Shown here in pieces: positions 10,199-51,129 of a DNA stretch of 64,000 bases. The notes under the pieces were generated by a model. The model was given only the letters and a program-made list of their open reading frames with translations, did no database searches and was not told the DNA's origin. Positions within the stretch are counted from its first letter, which is position 1; each line of letters begins with the position of its first letter. The stretch comes from a phage. The stretch lies in sequence record PZ445489.1, one strand, 5' to 3'. Both the position numbers and the translations under genes were made by a program.

Positions 10199-10681
10199 AT
10201 GGAAGAAAAATACAAAGAAATAGTGGGGTTATTTGATTATAATCCAGAAACAGGGATATTTACCCATAAAGCTAGAGAAGATAAATCCTTCAATACTAGA
10301 TTTGCTGGCAAAGAAGCTGGTTCTCTAGAAAAATGCTCTGGATATATTGTAATGCAAGTAAAAGGCACTAAGTATTACGCGCATATCCTAGCATTCCTTA
10401 TCGTTAATGGGTATATTCCAAAGGAAGTAGATCACGATAATAGAATACGGCACGATAACCGAGCTATTAATTTAAAGGCCTCTGACAGACACAGTAATGG
10501 TAAAAATGTCGGGGCGCACAAAGATAATAAATTAGGTATTAAAAATATTCACCAAAAAGCGAGTGGATCTTACCAGGTACAGATAGCCCGTAAAGGTGTA
10601 AAATATACTAAAACATTCAAAGAACTTGAGGATGCTATAGAGTGGCGCGATATGAAACTATTGGAGCTTGATAGTTTATAA
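10199..10681 (+). CDS. HNH homing endonuclease
   Basis: HNH-like VDHDNRIRHDNRAINL plus C-terminal AP2-like DNA-binding region; sits between nrdA and nrdB. Confidence 0.7.
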   Translation: MEEKYKEIVGLFDYNPETGIFTHKAREDKSFNTRFAGKEAGSLEKCSGYIVMQVKGTKYYAHILAFLIVNGYIPKEVDHDNRIRHDNRAINLKASDRHSNGKNVGAHKDNKLGIKNIHQKASGSYQVQIARKGVKYTKTFKELEDAIEWRDMKLLELDSL

Positions 10682-10729
10682 TTTTACTTGCTAATCGCTA
10701 CCAGATTTGCTATAATATTCCTGAAATAG
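10676..10729 (+). promoter_or_regulatory. T5-type early promoter
   Basis: TTGCTA 10688-10693, 17-nt spacer, TATAAT 10711-10716. Confidence 0.6.
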
Positions 10730-10747
10730 TGAGAAAGAGGAAAATCA

Positions 10748-11893
10748 ATGACTACTTTACTAAACCTGAATTGGGATCATACTAATGCTGACCTTTTCCT
10801 GGGAGATTCTCTCGGTATCGCAGATTATGTACGTGTAGCACATCCAGAACTAGAACGTCTGGCACTTCTGCAACGCTCTCAATTTTGGACTGAAACTGAG
10901 ATCAGTCTGGAAGCAGATAAGAAACAATGGCCTAACCTCCCACGGGAAATTCAGGAAATTACACTCCTGAACTTAGCATGGCAGACTCAAACAGACTCCT
11001 TTATCAGTCGTGCTCCTGAAGCAGCTATTATGCCACTTGTAAGTCGTCCAGAATTGGAAGGTATGCTCAAACAGTGGAGCTATTTTGAAGACCTGCATAG
11101 TCGTGCTTATAGCAATATTATTCGTAATGTGCTGACTGACCCAGCAGAATTTATTGATTCTGTAACCAAAAACCAAGAAGCATTCGCACGCATCGCTGAT
11201 TCTGTTGAACTATTCGATGAACTGTACCTGTTAGGTCAGTATTTCATTGCAGTACGCGATCATCGTGGCGACAATACATACCCAGAAACTGAGTTCCCTG
11301 AAGTTAAACGTGAAACTCAGGCTAAACTATTAGACGCTTACTTTGCGATCTACGGTCTGGAAGCAATGCAGTTTTACGCATCCTTTGCATGTACCTTTGC
11401 ATTAGCAGAGAATGATATTCTGCAAGGTATTGCTAAAAATCTGCAATTAATCGCTAAAGATGAAGCTCTGCATACTCAGATGTCCAAAGCAATCATCCAG
11501 ATTATGTTTCAGCAATTTGACAAAGATCTGGTAGATGAAGCAGTGGCTAAAGCACCAGCACAGCTCCTGAAAACTCTGAAAACTGAAATTGAATGGGGTC
11601 ATTTCATTTTCAAAGGTCGTAGTCTGATTGGCTTGAACGCAGAACTTCTAGAAGAATATCTGTACTTTGTGGGGCGTAATGCATTTATGCACATTGGTGT
11701 AGAATGGCCTAGTCACTTACCAGTAATCACCAAAAACCCTATTCCGTGGATCATGAACTGGTTGGATACTACTTCTCTACAGCCTGCTCCACAAGAAATT
11801 CAGATTGGTGCAGCTTACCGTGTAGGTCAGGTAACTGAGACATCTACTGATACTCTGAAAGATCTGGGTAATGAATTTGGAGATTTCTTATGA
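10748..11893 (+). CDS. nrdB: ribonucleoside-diphosphate reductase beta subunit
   Basis: 381 aa; di-iron ligand motifs EDLHSRAY and EALHTQ. Confidence 0.9.
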   Translation: MTTLLNLNWDHTNADLFLGDSLGIADYVRVAHPELERLALLQRSQFWTETEISLEADKKQWPNLPREIQEITLLNLAWQTQTDSFISRAPEAAIMPLVSRPELEGMLKQWSYFEDLHSRAYSNIIRNVLTDPAEFIDSVTKNQEAFARIADSVELFDELYLLGQYFIAVRDHRGDNTYPETEFPEVKRETQAKLLDAYFAIYGLEAMQFYASFACTFALAENDILQGIAKNLQLIAKDEALHTQMSKAIIQIMFQQFDKDLVDEAVAKAPAQLLKTLKTEIEWGHFIFKGRSLIGLNAELLEEYLYFVGRNAFMHIGVEWPSHLPVITKNPIPWIMNWLDTTSLQPAPQEIQIGAAYRVGQVTETSTDTLKDLGNEFGDFL

Positions 11894-20157: not shown

Positions 20158-21105
20158 ATGTTTAATACTAAAAATATGAAAGAACTGACTTCTGAGCAGA
20201 AAGTAATTCGTACTATTAAACGTTGGGGTATTGGTGCTGTAGTTGGTTTAGCAGGCTTGATTCTAGCCTTTAATTCATATACTATTGTTTCTGATGGTAC
20301 GGTTAAAACCCAAACATTTCTGGGTAAAGTAGATCCTAACCCAGTATTACCAGGTTTCCATCTTGTAAACCCATTTGCATCTTTCGACACTTTTAGTACA
20401 AAAGATATTGCTGTAAAATTAGATAAACTTCAGGTTCCTAGCCAGGATAAGTTTAAATCCACTGTTGACCTGACTGTTATGTTGCAGTTTGATGGTTCTA
20501 AGGCACCAATTAACCGTATTAACGCAGGTACTCAGGATCAAGCGTTAGACAAATATGTAACTGAAAAATTACTGTCTACTATTCGTGAGTTTGGTAAGTC
20601 TGTACCTAAAGCACAAGATTTGTTTGATGCTAAAATTCAGGCTCAATTGCAAACTGCAATTCAACAGGAAGTTGAAGAGTATGCACGCCCATATGGTTAC
20701 ACAGTTAAGCAGGTATTCCTTCAGGATATTACTTTGCCACCGGTAATCATGGAACAGGTACAGAATACCAAAGTTCGTGAAGAACAGGTTAATGCTGCTA
20801 AAGCTGAATTAGCTCGTGTTGAACAGGAAGCACAGCAAAAAGTTAAACAAGCAGAAGCAGATCGTGAAGCTCGCAACAACCAAGCTATCGCTAATGAACG
20901 TGACGCAGATGCTAAACTGTACGCAGCTAAGAAAGAAGCTGAAGCTAACGCCGCACTGCAACGTACCATTACTCCTGAGATGATTCGTTGGAAACAACTG
21001 GAAGTCGAAATGATTCGTGCTCAGAAATATCAAGGTGGTGTACCACAGACTGTGGTAGGTACTGGCTACGATGGTCAAATGATCATGGATATGCGTAATA
21101 AATAA
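20158..21105 (+). CDS. SPFH/band-7 (prohibitin/HflC-like) membrane protein
   Basis: N-terminal TM helix then SPFH-like region and Ala/Gln/Glu-rich coiled coil. Confidence 0.7.
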   Translation: MFNTKNMKELTSEQKVIRTIKRWGIGAVVGLAGLILAFNSYTIVSDGTVKTQTFLGKVDPNPVLPGFHLVNPFASFDTFSTKDIAVKLDKLQVPSQDKFKSTVDLTVMLQFDGSKAPINRINAGTQDQALDKYVTEKLLSTIREFGKSVPKAQDLFDAKIQAQLQTAIQQEVEEYARPYGYTVKQVFLQDITLPPVIMEQVQNTKVREEQVNAAKAELARVEQEAQQKVKQAEADREARNNQAIANERDADAKLYAAKKEAEANAALQRTITPEMIRWKQLEVEMIRAQKYQGGVPQTVVGTGYDGQMIMDMRNK

Positions 21106-21127
21106 TATCCGCATGTAACATCTGAAG

Positions 21128-21170
21128 TAAGCCCTGCGTTCCCTGGAGAGCGCAGGGCTTTTCTTTTATC
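21128..21170. terminator. rho-independent terminator
   Basis: agccctgcg..cgcagggct stem followed by TTTTCTTTT. Confidence 0.6.
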
Positions 21171-21180
21171 TTAAATACAG

Positions 21181-21220
21181 AAAAGCCCCTAAGTCTTTCG
21201 ACTAGGGGCTTTATTGTTTG
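21181..21220. terminator. rho-independent terminator between convergent genes
   Basis: aaaagcccctag..ctaggggcttt stem with A/T runs on both sides. Confidence 0.6.
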
Positions 21221-27024: not shown

Positions 27025-27145
27025 ATTCTAGCGTGGTTGATGGGGAAACCAGCTTGGCTAGGGCAGAAGCTCGTTCGATTCGAGTGAAAGAATGGTTCTC
27101 GTAAGTCCGCACAAGTGATAGCAGGTTCGAGTCCTGTCTAGAATG
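27025..27145 (+). ncRNA. tRNA-like RNA with about 50-nt internal expansion (about 121 nt)
   Basis: Perfect 7-bp acceptor pairing attctag/ctagaat 113 nt apart, canonical T-arm gcagg-TTCGAGT-cctgt, D-arm-like hairpin; no normal anticodon arm. Confidence 0.35.
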
Positions 27146-27334
27146 ACATATTCTGGAGGTTTTGTGAATTACAAAGAATTAGATCTTTTAGCAAATAAAT
27201 TCACAGAGCTATCTGATAACGTTGTATCAAAGGACTCCAACATAGATAATTTTATTACTGAATATCGTGATGGTATAATCTCTAAACAAGAGTTGTTAGA
27301 TAAAACGTATAAATATTTAAAGGGGTTCAGCTAA
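27143..27334 (+). CDS. hypothetical protein (63 aa)
   Basis: ORF; start overlaps end of tRNA-like element; weak RBS. Confidence 0.35.
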   Translation: MTYSGGFVNYKELDLLANKFTELSDNVVSKDSNIDNFITEYRDGIISKQELLDKTYKYLKGFS

Positions 27335-48035: not shown

Positions 48036-48655
48036 TGACTTTATATGCACAACAATCTATTCAAGTAGTACCAGAGCATGAACTGAATACATGGGATTAT
48101 AGCTTTAAAGATTTAACTGCTACTGTACAATTCAAATCTATGAAGCTAACCTTTGCACACACTAGTATTAAAGCATGTAAAGATCTTGAAGGTAAGCTCG
48201 AAGATGCTCGCAAGATTTTTGGTACGGCTCGCATCCCGGCGGATAACCTGATTAATGCACTGATCGATGCAGGGTACAAACTTGTGAAGACTGAGGTGAA
48301 CCGCCCCAGTACTCCAGTGACTATTAGAGATCCGTGGCAGTCAGGGACAATCTCAATGCTGAATAACTCCGATAAAAGATTAATGTCGGATATGCACAAT
48401 GTTCCTTGTGGGGGTGTGGTAAGTAGTACGAAGTCATATAAGTTTGGGGAAGATTACGGCCCTTCTGTACAGTTGAAACATACCCAAGAAGCTTTTGAAT
48501 CTGATATGCGAAGCGTAGCACCTGTGGATGCTGGAGTTTCTAGGAGTTCTGTTTGTACTATTCATTTTAATAATCCTAGTAAACATGGAAGTCTAGAAGA
48601 TGCAATTATGGAAGCACTGGGAGCTGTTATTAATGAAGATAAGAGGGGTAATTAA
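48035..48655 (+). CDS. hypothetical protein (206 aa)
   Basis: ORF. Confidence 0.5.
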   Translation: MTLYAQQSIQVVPEHELNTWDYSFKDLTATVQFKSMKLTFAHTSIKACKDLEGKLEDARKIFGTARIPADNLINALIDAGYKLVKTEVNRPSTPVTIRDPWQSGTISMLNNSDKRLMSDMHNVPCGGVVSSTKSYKFGEDYGPSVQLKHTQEAFESDMRSVAPVDAGVSRSSVCTIHFNNPSKHGSLEDAIMEALGAVINEDKRGN

Positions 48656-49386
48656 TGAAAGATTTGGCAGTAAAATTTAAGAATATTCTAGCCCTCGCTA
48701 AGGGGGCTGATCATCGCTGTTTCTCTGATCTAACTGCTCAAGAGAAACATGCAGTAATGTTTGTTTGTGAGATGTTCCCAGCTAGGTGGGAAGGTGGTAA
48801 GATTAAGTATGATAACAAAGCTGCAAAAGCTGACCTTGCTTACTCTTATGTTGATATGAATAAACTTCTCAAGTCTTTAGATCCAACTGCTAAAGGTCAC
48901 ATGGGAAACTATATTCATGTTATTATTGATGAACCTCTCCCAGCGTATAGAGAAACATCCGCTAGAGAAGCGTTAGAAGCGTATCCTGAGCAACTTCTTA
49001 TCCCACCTAAGAAATGTAAGTTCGATCATCTTCCAGCATTAGCTTTTGAAACTAGCATTACGTTTGAAGATATTTATAGAACGATTGGAGCTGTAGTAGC
49101 ACGGATTGCAGTGGCACATCATCGTGATATAGAACTAACTACAGCGGAAGATTACATTCTATATGCTATCCACGATGAAAAGGACTCCTTCAAACGTTTA
49201 ATGGATGCGCTAGGATTAGGTAGTCTCACTGCACTTGTGCTTAACCAGGCTCCTAGAACTAAGCGTTATGCAAAAGGATCTATTACTCTTGAAGAAACAG
49301 GATCTACATCTTCATTCCTTGCTACGTATATTTATCTAGCATCTAAAGGAATCTATCTAAAGGCTAGAAAGAATGTCACTATATAA
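48655..49386 (+). CDS. hypothetical protein (243 aa)
   Basis: ORF. Confidence 0.5.
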   Translation: MKDLAVKFKNILALAKGADHRCFSDLTAQEKHAVMFVCEMFPARWEGGKIKYDNKAAKADLAYSYVDMNKLLKSLDPTAKGHMGNYIHVIIDEPLPAYRETSAREALEAYPEQLLIPPKKCKFDHLPALAFETSITFEDIYRTIGAVVARIAVAHHRDIELTTAEDYILYAIHDEKDSFKRLMDALGLGSLTALVLNQAPRTKRYAKGSITLEETGSTSSFLATYIYLASKGIYLKARKNVTI

Positions 49387-49729
49387 AGTATATATTCTTG
49401 CAAATAGGGATCTGACGAAGATCCCTAAGAGAACAAAGATCGGTATTAGTATGAATCCACATAATAGGATTCAAACACTAAACTTAGATAAGATAGTTTA
49501 TCGTGGTTTTGACGATTTATACGTGTATGGGATCTATGAAACCCATAATCCTAGAGATCTAGAAGCCGCTGCACATATCTACTTTAAGAAATACCGCTGT
49601 AATTTAAAGGGATTCGAAGGATGCACAGAGTTCTTTGATATTCACCCACAACTTGCAGAACGATTCCTATTAAATACAGGAGCCAAGAAGATTTACGACC
49701 CCAATATCAATCTCGAAGGAGATGTATAA
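49373..49729 (+). CDS. GIY-YIG-like nuclease domain protein (118 aa)
   Basis: YKVYIL...KIGISMNPHNRIQTL resembles the GIY-(N10)-YIG-..R..N pattern; weak. Confidence 0.4.
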   Translation: MSLYKVYILANRDLTKIPKRTKIGISMNPHNRIQTLNLDKIVYRGFDDLYVYGIYETHNPRDLEAAAHIYFKKYRCNLKGFEGCTEFFDIHPQLAERFLLNTGAKKIYDPNINLEGDV

Positions 49730-49734
49730 ACGTT

Positions 49735-49790
49735 AACAAAATCTTCTTGACAACTCATTGCGGAACATGTTATAATAATCTCATAGATTA
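49735..49790 (+). promoter_or_regulatory. near-consensus sigma70 promoter with no downstream ORF
   Basis: TTGACA 49747-49752, 18-nt spacer, TATAAT 49771-49776. Confidence 0.5.
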
Positions 49791-49815
49791 AAAACAACTC
49801 TTGTTTTGAACTCTA

Positions 49816-49911
49816 GGGGCGATGATTATTACACTTAGTATTACGTCTATACGTTGCGACAGCACGAGTATAGATCTAATTACTAAGTCTTCCGTAATAC
49901 TCACGCGCCCC
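49816..49911. repeat. imperfect nested palindrome (about 95 bp)
   Basis: ggggcg..gtattacg..ctatac..gtatag..cgtaatac..cgcccc. Confidence 0.5.
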
Positions 49912-50224
49912 ACGAGGAATCTCACATGAAATGGGGGTATATTTACTTTTAAATAACTAAAAATATTTAAAGGCAATATCTGTGTTCAAGATGATACACC
50001 TGTTGCCGCTCATCTGCTAGGATGGCACAACACTTTCTAGTAGACTCCTAAGTTTCTAGGAATAGTTGAGCACTAACTCTAGAGTTTACATTAAACTTTA
50101 AATCTGTTTCTCTAGCCAACTCAGGCGGTTTTCATTGTTCCTAGAAACTCTAGCAATAGGCGGTTATAGGGAGGGCGGTTATTTCTAGAAGACATTTTTT
50201 GAAAACACATTTCCAGAAATTACT

Positions 50225-50825
50225 GTCGGATTTGCACACTGCATTTCTAGAAATTTATGGTCGGATTTGCACAAACGCCTAAGTTTTTAGGGACACATAA
50301 TCTCCTGAAAATAGCAGCATTATTTCGGGCCGAAGGCCCATGATTGCCTGAGTTTTTAGAGCCACAGAAATTTTCACTTGTCAAGCTATTTTGCCCCGTT
50401 TAGCTAATAAAATTTTACTTTTTCTGCACCTATCTCAAATTAACCCAAATTATCTCACATCTTCCCCAAAATCCCCGCAAATCAGGTGCTCCGCACCAAA
50501 CATGCGCCCCATCCTTCTAGCCTCCCAAATTTCTCTCACTCTCTCATCTTCTCCTCAAACCCACACAATCACACACCCTCCAATCGAAGTCACAAAAATC
50601 TTGTCGGATTCGCACAAATAAACCCATGTCGGATTTGCACATATTCTAGCTAATTCCACAGGATTGATGCGCAGCATCGGATTGCTGGAGTTTTTGGGAA
50701 AATTCATTGTCGGATTTGCACACTATAAAAATTTTTCGGGTCGGATTTGCACACTACCAAAAATTGTCGGATTCGCACATACATGCCCGCACGTAACACC
50801 CGTGGAGCAATGTCGGATTTGCACA
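50225..50825 (+). repeat. eight direct copies of 14-bp box GTCGGATT(T/C)GCACA
   Basis: Copies at 50225, 50260, 50603, 50628, 50709, 50740, 50766, 50812, all same orientation. Confidence 0.8.
50510..50585 (+). other. G-free C/T/A tract on + strand (about 75 nt)
   Basis: cctcccaaatttctctcactctctcatcttctcctcaaacccacacaatcacacaccctc has no G. Confidence 0.7.
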
Positions 50826-50871
50826 AAAGCGCAGGGCAATTGCCCTGCTAGCCTGAATGCGAATGATAATA

Positions 50872-51000: not shown

Positions 51001-51023
51001 AGTGAGAAACACTGTTATTTAAG

Positions 51024-51105
51024 TTATCCACAGACTTATTAACAGCACGATTTGACTTGACAGAATCCTAGCCATTTTGAGGCGTTATTAACAGACTTAT
51101 CCACA
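51024..51105 (+). promoter_or_regulatory. two DnaA-box-like TTATCCACA sites
   Basis: TTATCCACA at 51024-51032 and 51097-51105. Confidence 0.5.
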
Positions 51106-51129
51106 GCTTATCCTACTGTATAAATATAC
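51094..51129. repeat. 36-bp inverted repeat, left copy (partner 54637-54672)
   Basis: gacttatccacagcttatcctactgtataaatatac; 34 of 36 match reverse complement of right copy. Confidence 0.7.

What the first reader, a model, noticed from the sequence alone, without database searches (positions are those of the whole stretch)
49735..49911. Near-consensus sigma70 promoter firing into a 95-bp nested palindrome with no ORF
TTGACA-18-TATAAT at 49747-49776 is followed by a large imperfect palindrome (49816-49911) and then the repeat-rich ORF-free zone. This lies at the junction between the early region and the putative terminal-repeat region. It may mark the terminal-repeat boundary, a cruciform-forming signal, or the start of a noncoding transcript through the iteron array.
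Basis: partly seen in the sequence, partly recalled or inferred. Interest (0 to 1): 0.5.

Follow-up and report, generated by a model that had tools for sequence, protein, structure and literature searches.

The report
Unannotated structured RNA gene in T5-like phages
Next to the long terminal repeat of a T5-like phage, a perfect host-type promoter appears to drive a hairpin-rich non-coding RNA that nobody has annotated; many T5 relatives keep its shape while its sequence varies widely, and its function is unknown.

Summary
TTGACA-18-TGtTATAAT (49747-49776) is one of only two perfect sigma-70 consensus promoters in the 64-kb window. The 96-nt hairpin at 49816-49911 folds far better than shuffled sequence (z = -6.5).

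The window is a T5-like phage (Demerecviridae) read in reverse relative to the T5 map. By homology to T5 and to PhageTerm-annotated relatives, the terminal-repeat boundary lies at about 50358/50359. That is about 450 bp beyond the hairpin, so the hairpin does not mark the boundary.

The same layout sits at the same position in every relative examined, and related sequence occurs in several hundred deposited genomes:
- a conserved promoter;
- a small hairpin (P1);
- one long hairpin (P2);
- in most types a G-run followed by an AT-rich tail.

P2 comes in at least ten sequence types, and all nine tested fold into a single long hairpin. Compensatory base changes support P1 and P2. Substitutions that give G·U pairs favour the transcribed strand. 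No reading frame is conserved, and nothing matches in Rfam, E. coli genomes or the searchable literature.

Best reading: an unannotated structured non-coding RNA gene of unknown function. It may instead be the structured leader of a transcript that runs into the iteron array.

The parts
49747..49776 (+). Sigma-70 promoter: -35 TTGACA (49747-49752), 18-nt spacer, extended -10 TG (49768-49769), -10 TATAAT (49771-49776). The inferred transcription start is the A at 49783.
   Evidence: 12/12 consensus. It is one of two perfect consensus promoters in the window and the only one with TG. Across relatives TGTTATAAT is kept (TGTTATCAT in T5, TGTTACAAT in Slocum). The -35 is TTGACA or TTGACG in most, but only 3/6 (TTGCAT) in class B1 and L029. 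The spacer sequence varies freely. The start site is inferred from the standard 7-nt spacing and has not been mapped.
49791..49807 (+). P1: small 7-bp hairpin (AAAACAA-CUC-UUGUUUU) near the 5' end of the predicted RNA.
   Evidence: 4 of 7 pairs change on both sides among relatives (AAAACA/TGTTTT, ACAATA/TATTGT, CAACTA/TAGTTG, ATAACA/TGTTAT). 86% of cells are paired against 74% in shuffles. The covariation score is 0.273 against 0.068, reached by 0 of 500 shuffles.
49811..49916 (+).
   Evidence: z = -6.48. Nine sequence types from relatives were folded and all give one long hairpin, z from -3.6 to -8.8; a tenth type was seen. On a structure-fitted alignment, 24 of 47 pairs change on both sides and 91% of cells are paired, against 32-42% when partners are slid. 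In plain sequence alignments, T5 versus Gostya9/S116 shows 3 compensatory double changes.
49921..49937 (+). Conserved 3' motif CTCACATGAAATGGGGG, ending in a run of five G (49933-49937). The arms could form a weak hairpin (P3).
   Evidence: A run of four or five G in the equivalent position is present in types A-G and absent in type H. P3 pairing is weak in the window (A·G mismatches) and stronger in relatives such as L003 and L009.
49939..49979 (+). AT-rich imperfect palindrome and U-rich tail: the candidate weak 3' end of the RNA.
   Evidence: A 15-bp A-U-rich hairpin is predicted, but the region does not fold better than shuffles (z = -1.0). The equivalent element in Serratia phage Slocum is a clear intrinsic terminator, GGGCTATATTTAAAATAAATAGCCC followed by TTATTTTTT. 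No terminator-like site was reported here in the window.
49985..50358 (.). Conserved non-coding block between the RNA element and the terminal-repeat boundary. It is rich in CTAG and holds the first two iterons.
   Evidence: Homology to T5 resumes at 49985, matching T5 10608 (87% identity over 1.3 kb). This corresponds to the part of T5 'Repeat Region 3' that overruns the repeat by about 270 bp (Davison, bioRxiv 10.1101/866236). CTAG density in 49700-50400 is 14.3 per kb against 4.6 per kb elsewhere.
50358..50359 (.). Inferred boundary of the direct terminal repeat. The repeat extends rightwards in the window to about 60410.
   Evidence: Alignment with the annotated end of the T5 left repeat, 10219 in NC_005859. 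The Sepoy PhageTerm boundary and the Kenya-K15 DTR lie 613-619 bp after the stop codon of the homing-endonuclease gene. T5 positions 105-600 match 60306-59811. This is inferred by homology; no read-coverage data are available.
50225..50830 (+). Array of eight iterons GTCGGATT(T/C)GCACA, all in the orientation of the predicted transcript, straddling the repeat boundary.
   Evidence: 10 matches in the window against 1.4 expected; 8 of them here. They correspond to T5 'direct repeat D' (AY587007 annotation).
50391..50620 (+). C-rich, G-poor tract just inside the repeat. On a + strand transcript it would look like a loading site for the Rho termination factor.
   Evidence: GC skew of -0.63 to -0.79 in 100-nt windows between 50400 and 50600. 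The Rho reading is inference.
49373..49729 (+). Homing-endonuclease gene (T5orf172 / GIY-YIG type) inserted between the last early gene and the promoter.
   Evidence: Pfam PF13455 and PF10544, phrog_18411. It is present in the window's type and absent at this site in T5 and in the records with a fully annotated upstream gene (A', B2, C, D, E and F). It is context, not part of the RNA element.

Best explanation
The feature is an unannotated non-coding RNA gene that T5-like phages (Demerecviridae) keep between their last leftward early gene and the terminal repeat.

Proposed course of events:
1. Host RNA polymerase with sigma-70 starts at about 49783 from a perfect, extended -10 promoter. This DNA lies just beyond the first-step-transfer segment, so it should be among the first DNA to enter at second-step transfer (inference).
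2. The transcript folds into a small hairpin (P1, 49791-49807) and one long irregular hairpin (P2, 49816-49911).
3. A G-run and an AU-rich tail follow. Most transcripts probably end here, at about 160-200 nt. Any that read through would meet a C-rich tract, a plausible Rho loading site, just inside the repeat.

Evolution keeps the shape of P1 and P2 while the sequence of P2 is replaced almost completely. No single-stranded stretch is conserved across all types as a seed for base pairing. The RNA therefore most likely acts through its structure, as a ligand or decoy for a protein, and not by base pairing or by coding.

Shown here: the promoter and its conservation, the structure and its covariation, the conserved position, and the absence of coding potential. 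Inferred: the start site, the 3' end, the timing and the mode of action. The partner protein and the biological role are unknown.
For: Promoter.
- 12/12 consensus plus TG, and one of two perfect consensus promoters in the window.
- The TG and the -10 are kept, and the -35 is kept in most types, while the spacer varies across about 40 distinct relatives.

Structure.
- P2 z = -6.5. Nine sequence types from relatives were folded and all give a single long hairpin, z from -3.6 to -8.8.
- P1 has 4 of 7 pairs with changes on both sides; 0 of 500 shuffles reach its score.
- On the covariance-model alignment, 24 of 47 pairs change on both sides and 91% of cells are paired, against 76% in shuffles and 32-42% when partners are slid.
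- In plain sequence alignments within the T5 type there are 3 compensatory double changes, 2 changes to U·G, 1 broken pair and 5 changes in unpaired positions.
- Over all types, about half of the substitutions fall in the roughly 25% of positions that are unpaired.

RNA strand.
- One-sided changes that keep a pair mostly give G·U on the + strand (four or five events, against one giving A·C).
- The + strand folds better than the - strand in 8 of 9 types.

3' end.
- The Slocum version ends in a clean intrinsic terminator. Type B1 has a long hairpin followed by a U-run.

Gene-like behaviour.
- There is one copy per genome at the same position in every relative examined.
- Related sequence is found in 272 + 141 + 112 phage records for three queries; these counts overlap and include partial, promoter-only matches.

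Not something else.
- No ORF is shared between types, and a 1-nt deletion within type C shifts the frame.
- No Rfam match, no E. coli genome match, no annotation in three T5 records, and no paper in the library holds the sequences.
Against: - No transcript data were available, so the promoter's activity, the start site and the RNA's ends are all unverified.
- The window's own version has no convincing intrinsic terminator, so a discrete small RNA is not assured here.
- P2 is almost entirely Watson-Crick paired (36 of 37 pairs), so a DNA hairpin cannot be excluded on structure alone.
- The covariance-model alignment is fitted to the structure and leans towards it.
- The most distant types (T5 type E, Serratia type G) do not reach significance with the models (E = 1.7 and 0.38). 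They are joined to the family by position and layout only.
- The P2 type tracks the allele of the upstream gene. Part of the 'cassette' pattern may therefore be plain linked divergence.
- The protein-binding mechanism is argued by exclusion, not from any positive evidence.
Confidence: 0.55

Rival explanations
1. The structure is a cis-acting leader. P1 and P2 modify the transcribing polymerase, by processive antitermination or pausing, as the put RNAs of phage HK022 do. An untranslated transcript can then run about 0.6-1.5 kb across the terminal-repeat boundary and the iteron and DnaA-box region. There, the act of transcription or the RNA itself would serve a DNA transaction such as concatemer cutting, repeat regeneration, or clearing proteins from the injection-stop region.
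For: - The structured RNA begins within about 10 nt of the inferred start.
- The window has no intrinsic terminator before the boundary.
- All eight iterons share the transcript's orientation and straddle the boundary about 576 nt downstream.
- A strong C-rich, G-poor tract follows, which an unmodified untranslated transcript should not pass.
- The element keeps its position next to the repeat even in distant relatives.
- Analogy from general knowledge: T7 needs transcription from the phiOR promoter into the concatemer junction for DNA maturation.
Against: - Slocum and type B1 have good terminators straight after the structure.
- There is no detectable similarity to put RNA or any Rfam antitermination element.
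- The C-rich tract may equally be there to stop the transcript.
- No experiment links T5 packaging or DNA transfer to transcription.
Confidence: 0.2
2. The palindrome works as DNA. It would be a hairpin or cruciform in double- or single-stranded DNA that acts in terminal-repeat duplication, packaging, priming or replication initiation, with the promoter only helping to open the DNA.
For: - P2 is nearly all Watson-Crick paired and folds almost equally well on both strands in the window (-39.1 against -38.9 kcal/mol).
- It lies about 450 bp from the repeat boundary, next to an AT-rich palindrome, iterons and DnaA-box-like repeats.
- From general knowledge: T7 DNA maturation involves a hairpin near the repeat.
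Against: - Bulges and asymmetric loops disfavour cruciform extrusion.
- In 8 of 9 types the + strand folds better.
- One-sided substitutions give G·U on the + strand about 4-5 to 1.
- A promoter with conserved TG and -10 always precedes the hairpin in the same orientation.
- Cumulative GC skew has a maximum here, not the minimum expected at an origin.
- Electron-microscopy studies place T5 origins near the middle of the genome (cited in Davison, 10.1101/866236).
Confidence: 0.08
3. P2 is an RNase III-type processing or 3'-stabilising hairpin for the early operon that ends just upstream, as at the T7 early RNase III sites. The promoter would be incidental or secondary.
For: - About 37 bp of nearly continuous duplex would be a plausible RNase III substrate.
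- In the window only 17 nt separate the stop codon of the last early gene from the promoter, and no terminator lies between them, so read-through transcripts would carry P2.
Against: - A perfect consensus promoter, kept in all relatives, sits directly in front of the hairpin.
- In Klebsiella phage Sealy a terminator-like hairpin (stem followed by a T-run, read by eye) separates the upstream gene from the promoter, so there the hairpin belongs to its own transcript.
- P1 and the 3' motif are conserved too.
Confidence: 0.08
4. The palindrome marks the terminal-repeat boundary, or the region encodes a small protein.
For: It lies close to the repeat. Several GenBank records annotate small hypothetical ORFs over it.
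Against: - The boundary maps about 450 bp away in T5, Sepoy, Kenya-K15 and Slocum.
- The annotated ORFs lie on different strands and in different frames. None is shared between types, and indels within a type shift the frame.
Confidence: 0.03

Closest known systems
putL / putR antiterminator RNAs of phage HK022
   Same: Promoter-proximal stem-loops in a nascent phage transcript made by host sigma-70 RNA polymerase. Function resides in the RNA fold, and no protein is encoded.
   Different: No sequence or model similarity could be tested (there is no match in Rfam). Here there is one short and one very long hairpin. Terminator read-through has not been shown, and two relatives have a terminator directly after the structure.
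pRNA of phi29-like phages
   Same: A structured RNA of about 170 nt, encoded next to a genome end and transcribed from a strong early host-type promoter towards that end. The secondary structure is conserved among relatives while the sequence diverges strongly.
   Different: pRNA has a three-way junction and interlocking loops and is part of a protein-primed phage's packaging motor. T5-like phages are not reported to need an RNA for packaging. Nothing here tests such a role.
Stable small RNAs of virulent coliphages (T4 species 1 and 2 RNAs) and other phage-encoded sRNAs
   Same: Non-coding RNAs of a lytic phage, made by host polymerase, with unknown or regulatory function.
   Different: The T4 RNAs lie in the tRNA cluster and are processed from its precursor. 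This element has its own promoter, lies about 18 kb from the tRNA region, and has a hypervariable long hairpin. No base-pairing seed is conserved across all types.
T7 phiOR promoter, concatemer junction and maturation hairpin
   Same: A strong promoter firing towards a terminal repeat, with a palindrome near that repeat, in a phage with direct terminal repeats.
   Different: T7 uses its own polymerase. The promoter sits on the opposite side of the repeat relative to the packaging direction. The T7 hairpin is a DNA intermediate. In the present case the evidence favours RNA.
R-loop origins (ColE1 RNA II; T4 oriF/oriG)
   Same: A promoter, a structured RNA, a G-run and then an AT-rich segment, with DnaA-box-like iterons nearby.
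   Different: The cumulative GC skew has a maximum here, not a minimum. Published mapping places T5 origins mid-genome. No evidence of priming exists.
T5 'Repeat Region 3' / injection stop signal (Heusterspreute 1987; Wang 2005; Davison 2015, 2020)
   Same: It is the direct neighbour: the iterons, palindromes and DnaA boxes start about 75 bp after the element. The neighbour is known and annotated.
   Different: The annotated repeat region ends at T5 10409 (AY587007 numbering). The promoter and hairpins lie beyond it, in about 450 bp that are unannotated in all three T5 records.

Membership tests
Sigma-70 promoter, extended -10 class | -35 and -10 hexamers at 16-18 nt spacing with TG one base upstream of the -10 | tested here: met
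   TTGACA-18-TATAAT with TG at 49768-49769, a 12/12 match.
Sigma-70 promoter, extended -10 class | Promoter elements conserved in relatives while the spacer drifts | tested here: met
   TGTTATAAT, TGTTATCAT or TGTTACAAT is kept. The -35 is TTGACA or TTGACG in most but only 3/6 in B1/L029. Spacers are unrelated across types A-H.
Sigma-70 promoter, extended -10 class | Transcription initiates there in vivo | not testable with these tools
   No transcript data. Published T5 and Bas33 studies read here do not report this site.
Structured non-coding RNA gene | Secondary structure more stable than expected by chance | tested here: met
   z = -6.5 in the window; -3.6 to -8.8 in eight further types.
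Structured non-coding RNA gene | Base pairs maintained by compensatory change | tested here: met
   P1. P1 and P2 on the covariance-model alignment. Alignments not fitted to the structure, T5 versus Gostya9/S116: 3 compensatory pairs.
Structured non-coding RNA gene | Own terminator or a defined 3' end | tested here: inconclusive
   Clear in Slocum and type B1. Weak or absent in the window, T5 and Sealy.
Structured non-coding RNA gene | No conserved reading frame | tested here: met
   ORFs differ in strand and frame between types, and a frameshifting indel occurs within type C.
Any Rfam 15 family | Covariance-model match | tested here: not met
   No match with E <= 1 in the window region or in seven relatives. 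The best hit in the window is E = 1.9, elsewhere in the region.
Terminal-repeat boundary or terminase cut site | Coincides with the end of the direct terminal repeat | tested here: not met
   The boundary maps to about 50342-50359, 430-450 bp downstream. The same offset is seen in Slocum.
Cruciform-forming DNA inverted repeat | Long, near-perfect, symmetrical arms with a short spacer and no strand preference | tested here: not met
   The hairpin has seven or more interruptions, including a 5-nt one-sided bulge. The + strand is favoured in 8 of 9 types. Substitutions giving G·U favour the + strand.
put-type processive antiterminator RNA | Promoter-proximal stem-loops in the nascent RNA | tested here: met
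   P1 starts at +9 and P2 at +34 from the inferred start.
put-type processive antiterminator RNA | Causes read-through of downstream terminators; homology to put RNA | not testable with these tools
   No put model in the library and no transcription data.
R-loop replication origin | Located at a mapped origin or at a skew minimum | tested here: not met
   Cumulative GC skew has a maximum near 50 kb. T5 origins are reported near the genome centre.
Small protein gene | Conserved ORF with a start codon and ribosome-binding site | tested here: not met
   The 8-codon MKWGYIYF ORF is lost in L013, type D and T5.

The most novel reading that the evidence does not exclude
The RNA takes an active part in events at the terminal repeat. 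In this reading it is a self-acting antiterminator leader. It lets host polymerase transcribe an untranslated stretch across the terminase cut site and the injection-stop iterons, and that transcription is needed for concatemer processing, repeat regeneration or the switch after second-step transfer. An alternative reading is also not excluded. In that reading, the rapid replacement of the long hairpin's sequence reflects an arms race with a host factor that senses or is blocked by this RNA.
Probability: 0.2. Interest if true: 0.8.

Novelty: new member of a known kind. Interest (0 to 1): 0.6.

Why it matters
T5 is a classic model phage, and its relatives are among the most frequently isolated coliphages and Salmonella phages. 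Yet the roughly 450 bp between the terminal repeat's known repeat region and the first early gene carry no annotation in the T5 records.

A conserved RNA gene with a perfect promoter at this spot would be one of the first things expressed when the bulk of the genome enters the cell. It lies next to the least understood parts of T5 biology: the injection stop, second-step transfer, the shut-off of pre-early genes and the formation of the terminal repeats. It is easy to test, because its existence can be checked by re-mapping existing RNA-seq data.

It would also remove spurious small 'hypothetical protein' genes from many deposited genomes. Finally, it would add a phage RNA family whose shape is kept while its sequence turns over unusually fast.

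Tried and rejected
- **Rfam.** The window region and seven relatives gave nothing. A weak CRISPR-repeat hit on the opposite strand (E = 6.4) is noise.
- **tRNA/tmRNA scan.** All 23 tRNAs lie at 20-32 kb and none is here.
- **E. coli genomes.** No match to the RNA region, so it is not host-derived and not a host RNA mimic at sequence level.
- **Small ORFs.** The 35-aa (+) and 62-aa (-) ORFs and the 8-codon ORF after P2 are not conserved.
- **Alternative pairing.** I considered the CCCC arm of P2 pairing with the downstream G-run as an attenuator. This is not conserved, because types C, D and F lack the CCCC.
- **A 5-3-5 palindrome over the start site.** AATCT-CAT-AGATT in the window against AACTC-TAT-GAGTT in T5 looked compensatory. 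It straddles the inferred start, so it would not be wholly in the RNA, and I did not count it as evidence.
- **Antisense targets in the window.** The best is a 14-nt match of P1 to 27284-27297, inside a small ORF (E = 0.03). I judged it chance.
- **Sequence-based alignment of P2 across types.** Only the invariant outer stem aligns, so it shows no covariation. A structural aligner (MAFFT Q-INS-i / X-INS-i) was not usable.
- **Class-A covariance model.** It does not find the T5, Sealy, Slocum or K7 types (E >= 0.38). A multi-class model finds K7 (E = 0.0016) and Sealy (E = 0.07), but not Slocum (E = 0.38) or T5 (E = 1.7) significantly.
- **Literature.** I found nothing on this promoter or RNA in Davison 2020, the BF23 genome paper, the gpT5.026 paper, two 2026 T5/Bas33 papers, a 2025 review of phage sRNAs, or by exact-sequence search. 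'Rad', the anti-retron factor of T5-like phages, is a protein and is unrelated.
- **T5 nick site.** The major nick lies at A|GCGC, inside the repeat. The ACGCGCC in P2 is not preceded by a purine and is absent from types D and E.
Full report
**1. What the window is**

The region around the finding matches 445 T5-like phage records at 80-96% identity; the best is Escherichia phage FFH_1. The matches are on the minus strand of records that follow the T5 map, so the window's + strand is the reverse complement of that map.
- The genes at 46.8-49.7 kb on the + strand are the last leftward early genes.
- The final one, 49373-49729, is a homing endonuclease of the T5orf172 / GIY-YIG type.
- To the right lies the non-coding, repeat-rich end of the direct terminal repeat. 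In T5 this part holds the injection stop signal.

**2.

Promoter.
- -35 TTGACA at 49747-49752, an 18-nt spacer, TG at 49768-49769, and -10 TATAAT at 49771-49776.
- Promoter-like sites in general are not enriched in this region (25 found, 22 expected).
- A perfect 12/12 match occurs only twice on both strands of the 64 kb, and this is the only one that also has TG.

Hairpin.
- 49816-49911 folds as one long hairpin at -39.1 kcal/mol, z = -6.5, with 0 of 200 shuffles as good.
- It ranks third among 12,780 sliding 100-nt windows on the + strand.
- The two windows above it are a pair of back-to-back terminators (21121-21220) and a stretch inside an ORF.

Downstream there is no ORF of 90 aa or more until 51581, and eight iterons GTCGGATT(T/C)GCACA lie at 50225-50830.

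**3. It is not the terminal-repeat boundary**

- T5's left repeat ends at 10219 (NC_005859). Homology between the window and T5 resumes at window 49985, matching T5 10608. This places the boundary at window 50358/50359.
- The repeat annotated from PhageTerm in phage Sepoy and the annotated DTR of Kenya-K15 begin 613-619 bp after the stop codon of the endonuclease gene, at about 50342-50348.
- The palindrome therefore ends about 430-450 bp outside the repeat, in unique DNA.
- The other end of the repeat maps to about 60410.

**4. The element is conserved, and conserved as a layout**

I collected this region from 65 loci: GenBank phages, IMG/VR contigs and metagenome contigs. Every T5-like genome examined has the same series at the same place, directly after the last early gene:
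1. a promoter in which the TG and the -10 are kept while the spacer sequence is unrelated; the -35 is kept in most, but is only 3/6 in B1/L029;
2. a small hairpin, P1;
3. one long hairpin, P2, of 95-133 nt;
4. a run of four or five G (present in types A-G, absent in the Klebsiella type H);
5. an AT-rich palindrome or U-rich tail.

P2 occurs in at least ten sequence types:

| Type | Examples |
|---|---|
| A | the window |
| A', B1, B2, C, D | other Escherichia and Salmonella phages |
| E | T5, Gostya9, S116 |
| F | Klebsiella Sugarlandvirus (Sealy) |
| G | Serratia phage Slocum |
| H | Klebsiella phage K7_rec10 |

Types A to B2 share only the outer stem. The others share almost nothing with A inside the hairpin.

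T5 itself has the element at about 10,610-10,880. That stretch is unannotated in all three T5 records. It lies beyond the 'Repeat Region 3' that Davison describes as ending at 10409 in AY587007 numbering.

BLAST with three versions of the region finds 272, 141 and 112 phage records. These counts overlap and include partial, promoter-only matches.

**5. The structure is under selection**

- All nine P2 types that were folded give a single long hairpin, z from -3.6 to -8.8.
- P1: 4 of 7 pairs change on both sides (AAAACA/TGTTTT, ACAATA/TATTGT, CAACTA/TAGTTG, ATAACA/TGTTAT). The covariation score is 0.273 against 0.068 in shuffles, reached by 0 of 500.
- A covariance model built from the window's type finds types A', B2, B1, D and C (E from 1e-23 to 0.04). 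It finds one copy per genome and nothing else in the 64-kb window.
- On the resulting alignment, 91.4% of cells pair, against 76% in shuffles and 32-42% with slid partners. 24 of 47 pairs change on both sides. That alignment is fitted to the structure, so I also used plain sequence alignments within types.
- T5 versus Gostya9/S116/OSY-STA/gmork shows 3 compensatory double changes, 2 changes to U·G, 1 broken pair and 5 changes in unpaired positions.
- Over all types, about half of the distinct substitutions fall in the roughly 25% of positions that are unpaired.
- A multi-class model reaches type H (E = 0.0016) and type F (E = 0.07). Types G (E = 0.38) and E (E = 1.7) are not significant, although the best hit is at the right place in each locus tested except L060 (S116), where it ranked second. 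The most distant types are therefore joined to the family by position and layout, not by a significant model score.

**6. RNA or DNA, and which strand**

- The one-sided substitutions that keep a pair are mostly transitions giving G·U on the + strand: four or five events, against one giving A·C.
- The + strand folds better than the - strand in 8 of 9 types, by about 4 kcal/mol on average.
- The promoter always points into the structure.
- The hairpin has many bulges, including a one-sided 5-nt loop, which is poor for cruciform extrusion.

These points favour an RNA made from the + strand. The numbers are small, and P2 in the window is almost fully Watson-Crick paired, so a DNA role cannot be excluded.

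**7. It is not coding and matches nothing known**

- No ORF is shared between types on either strand. A 1-nt deletion inside type C shifts the frame.
- The small 'hypothetical proteins' annotated over the element lie on different strands in different records and are probably spurious.
- There is no Rfam match, no tRNA or tmRNA and no E. coli genome match.
- No paper in the library contains the sequences, and none of the T5 papers read mentions a promoter or RNA here.

**8. Where the transcript ends is open**

- Serratia phage Slocum has a clean intrinsic terminator directly after the structure. Type B1 has a long hairpin followed by a U-run.
- The window, T5 and Sealy have only weak AU-rich hairpins.
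- A transcript that read through would cross the repeat boundary 576 nt from the inferred start. It would pass iterons that all share its orientation.
- It would then enter a 230-nt tract that is very C-rich and G-poor (GC skew down to -0.79). That tract looks like a Rho loading site (inference).

**9. How it most likely works**

Shown: a conserved perfect promoter, a selected RNA fold, one copy at a fixed position, and no coding potential.

Inferred:
- Transcription starts at A 49783, from the standard spacing after the -10.
- Expression begins as soon as second-step transfer brings this DNA into the cell, because it lies about 0.6 kb beyond the first-step segment.
- The main product is about 160-200 nt.
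- The RNA acts through its shape. The fold is kept while the sequence of P2 is replaced, and no single-stranded stretch is conserved across all types as a pairing seed.

Features kept across several types hint at protein recognition. They are a basal stem CUAGGC/GCCUAG with a 3-4-nt bulge on its 3' side, and a GCG motif near the tip of the hairpin. This reading rests on inspection by eye.

I put about 0.55 on 'a discrete structured non-coding RNA that works in trans'. The rivals are:
- about 0.2 on a cis-acting leader (antitermination or pausing) for a transcript that must cross the repeat boundary;
- under 0.1 on a DNA hairpin;
- under 0.1 on an RNase III-type processing site.

An origin of replication is disfavoured. 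The cumulative GC skew has a maximum here, not a minimum, and T5 origins are reported mid-genome.

**10. Two cautions about the 'cassette' pattern**

- The P2 type tracks the allele of the upstream gene. That gene is itself hypervariable (30-100% amino-acid identity) and in T5 is replaced by an unrelated gene (phrog_8583 instead of phrog_8993). Part of the pattern may be linked divergence of a fast-evolving region, not replacement of the hairpin alone.
- Even so, P1, P2 and the 3' end recombine independently. For example, L020 carries a B1-type hairpin with an A-type 3' end.

**11. Novelty and verdict**

The neighbouring iterons, palindromes and DnaA boxes are known. The promoter-P1-P2 unit appears not to have been described. 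I class it as a new member of a known kind, phage-encoded structured non-coding RNAs, with unknown function. It is readily testable with existing RNA-seq data.

Noticed in passing
window 48655-49386 (+), compared with relatives: The last early gene before the element (phrog_8993, function unknown) is hypervariable among T5-like phages: 30-100% amino-acid identity over 285 records. In T5 an unrelated gene (T5.018, phrog_8583) takes its place. The sequence type of the long hairpin tracks the allele of this gene.
   Followed up: partly
window 49373-49729 (+); L065 1-330: A T5orf172 / GIY-YIG homing-endonuclease gene sits between the last early gene and the promoter in the window's type, overlapping the upstream gene by 14 nt. 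An annotated homing-endonuclease gene occupies the same spot in Klebsiella phage K7_rec10. The site may be a recurrent target for homing endonucleases.
   Followed up: partly
window 50391-50620 (+): A roughly 230-nt tract just inside the terminal repeat is extremely C-rich and G-poor on the + strand (GC skew -0.63 to -0.79). It would look like a Rho loading site on a rightward transcript, or it may have another strand-specific role at the repeat end.
   Followed up: no
window 49700-50400: CTAG is about three times enriched (14.3 per kb against 4.6 per kb in the rest of the window), mostly as TTCTAGAA- or CTCTAG-like motifs. Two of these flank the base of the long hairpin in several types. They may be protein-binding sites.
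   Followed up: no
window 50225-50830 and 51023-51107: There are eight same-orientation iterons GTCGGATT(T/C)GCACA (close to a DnaA box) straddling the repeat boundary, and a 61-bp-spaced pair of 24-nt repeats that contain TTATCCACA. These correspond to the known T5 'direct repeat D' and DnaA-box repeats.
   Followed up: partly
window 6397-6369 (- strand): The only other perfect consensus promoter in the window (TTGACA-17-TATAAT, without TG).
   Followed up: no
window 27284-27297 (+), inside ORF 27143-27334: A 14-nt perfect complement to the P1 hairpin of the predicted RNA (E = 0.03). It is a similar hairpin with the complementary loop. It is probably chance, but a loop-loop contact is conceivable.
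   Followed up: partly
window 21121-21220: The most stable local fold in the window is two back-to-back intrinsic terminators next to the stop of ORF 20158-21105; ORFs on the opposite strand lie downstream.
   Followed up: yes
L002 3489-3614, L003 3632-3841, L021 547-711, L024 521-712, L026 521-661, L058 2741-2878, L065 391-507: GenBank records annotate small 'hypothetical proteins' over the RNA element, on different strands and in different frames. These are probably spurious gene calls.
   Followed up: partly
L064 (Klebsiella phage KPN4) compared with L057 (Sealy), P2 pair 19-72: Both partners of one predicted base pair changed (U-A to A·G) without restoring pairing. Two hits on the same pair are unlikely by chance, so the local pairing register may differ from the prediction.
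   Followed up: no
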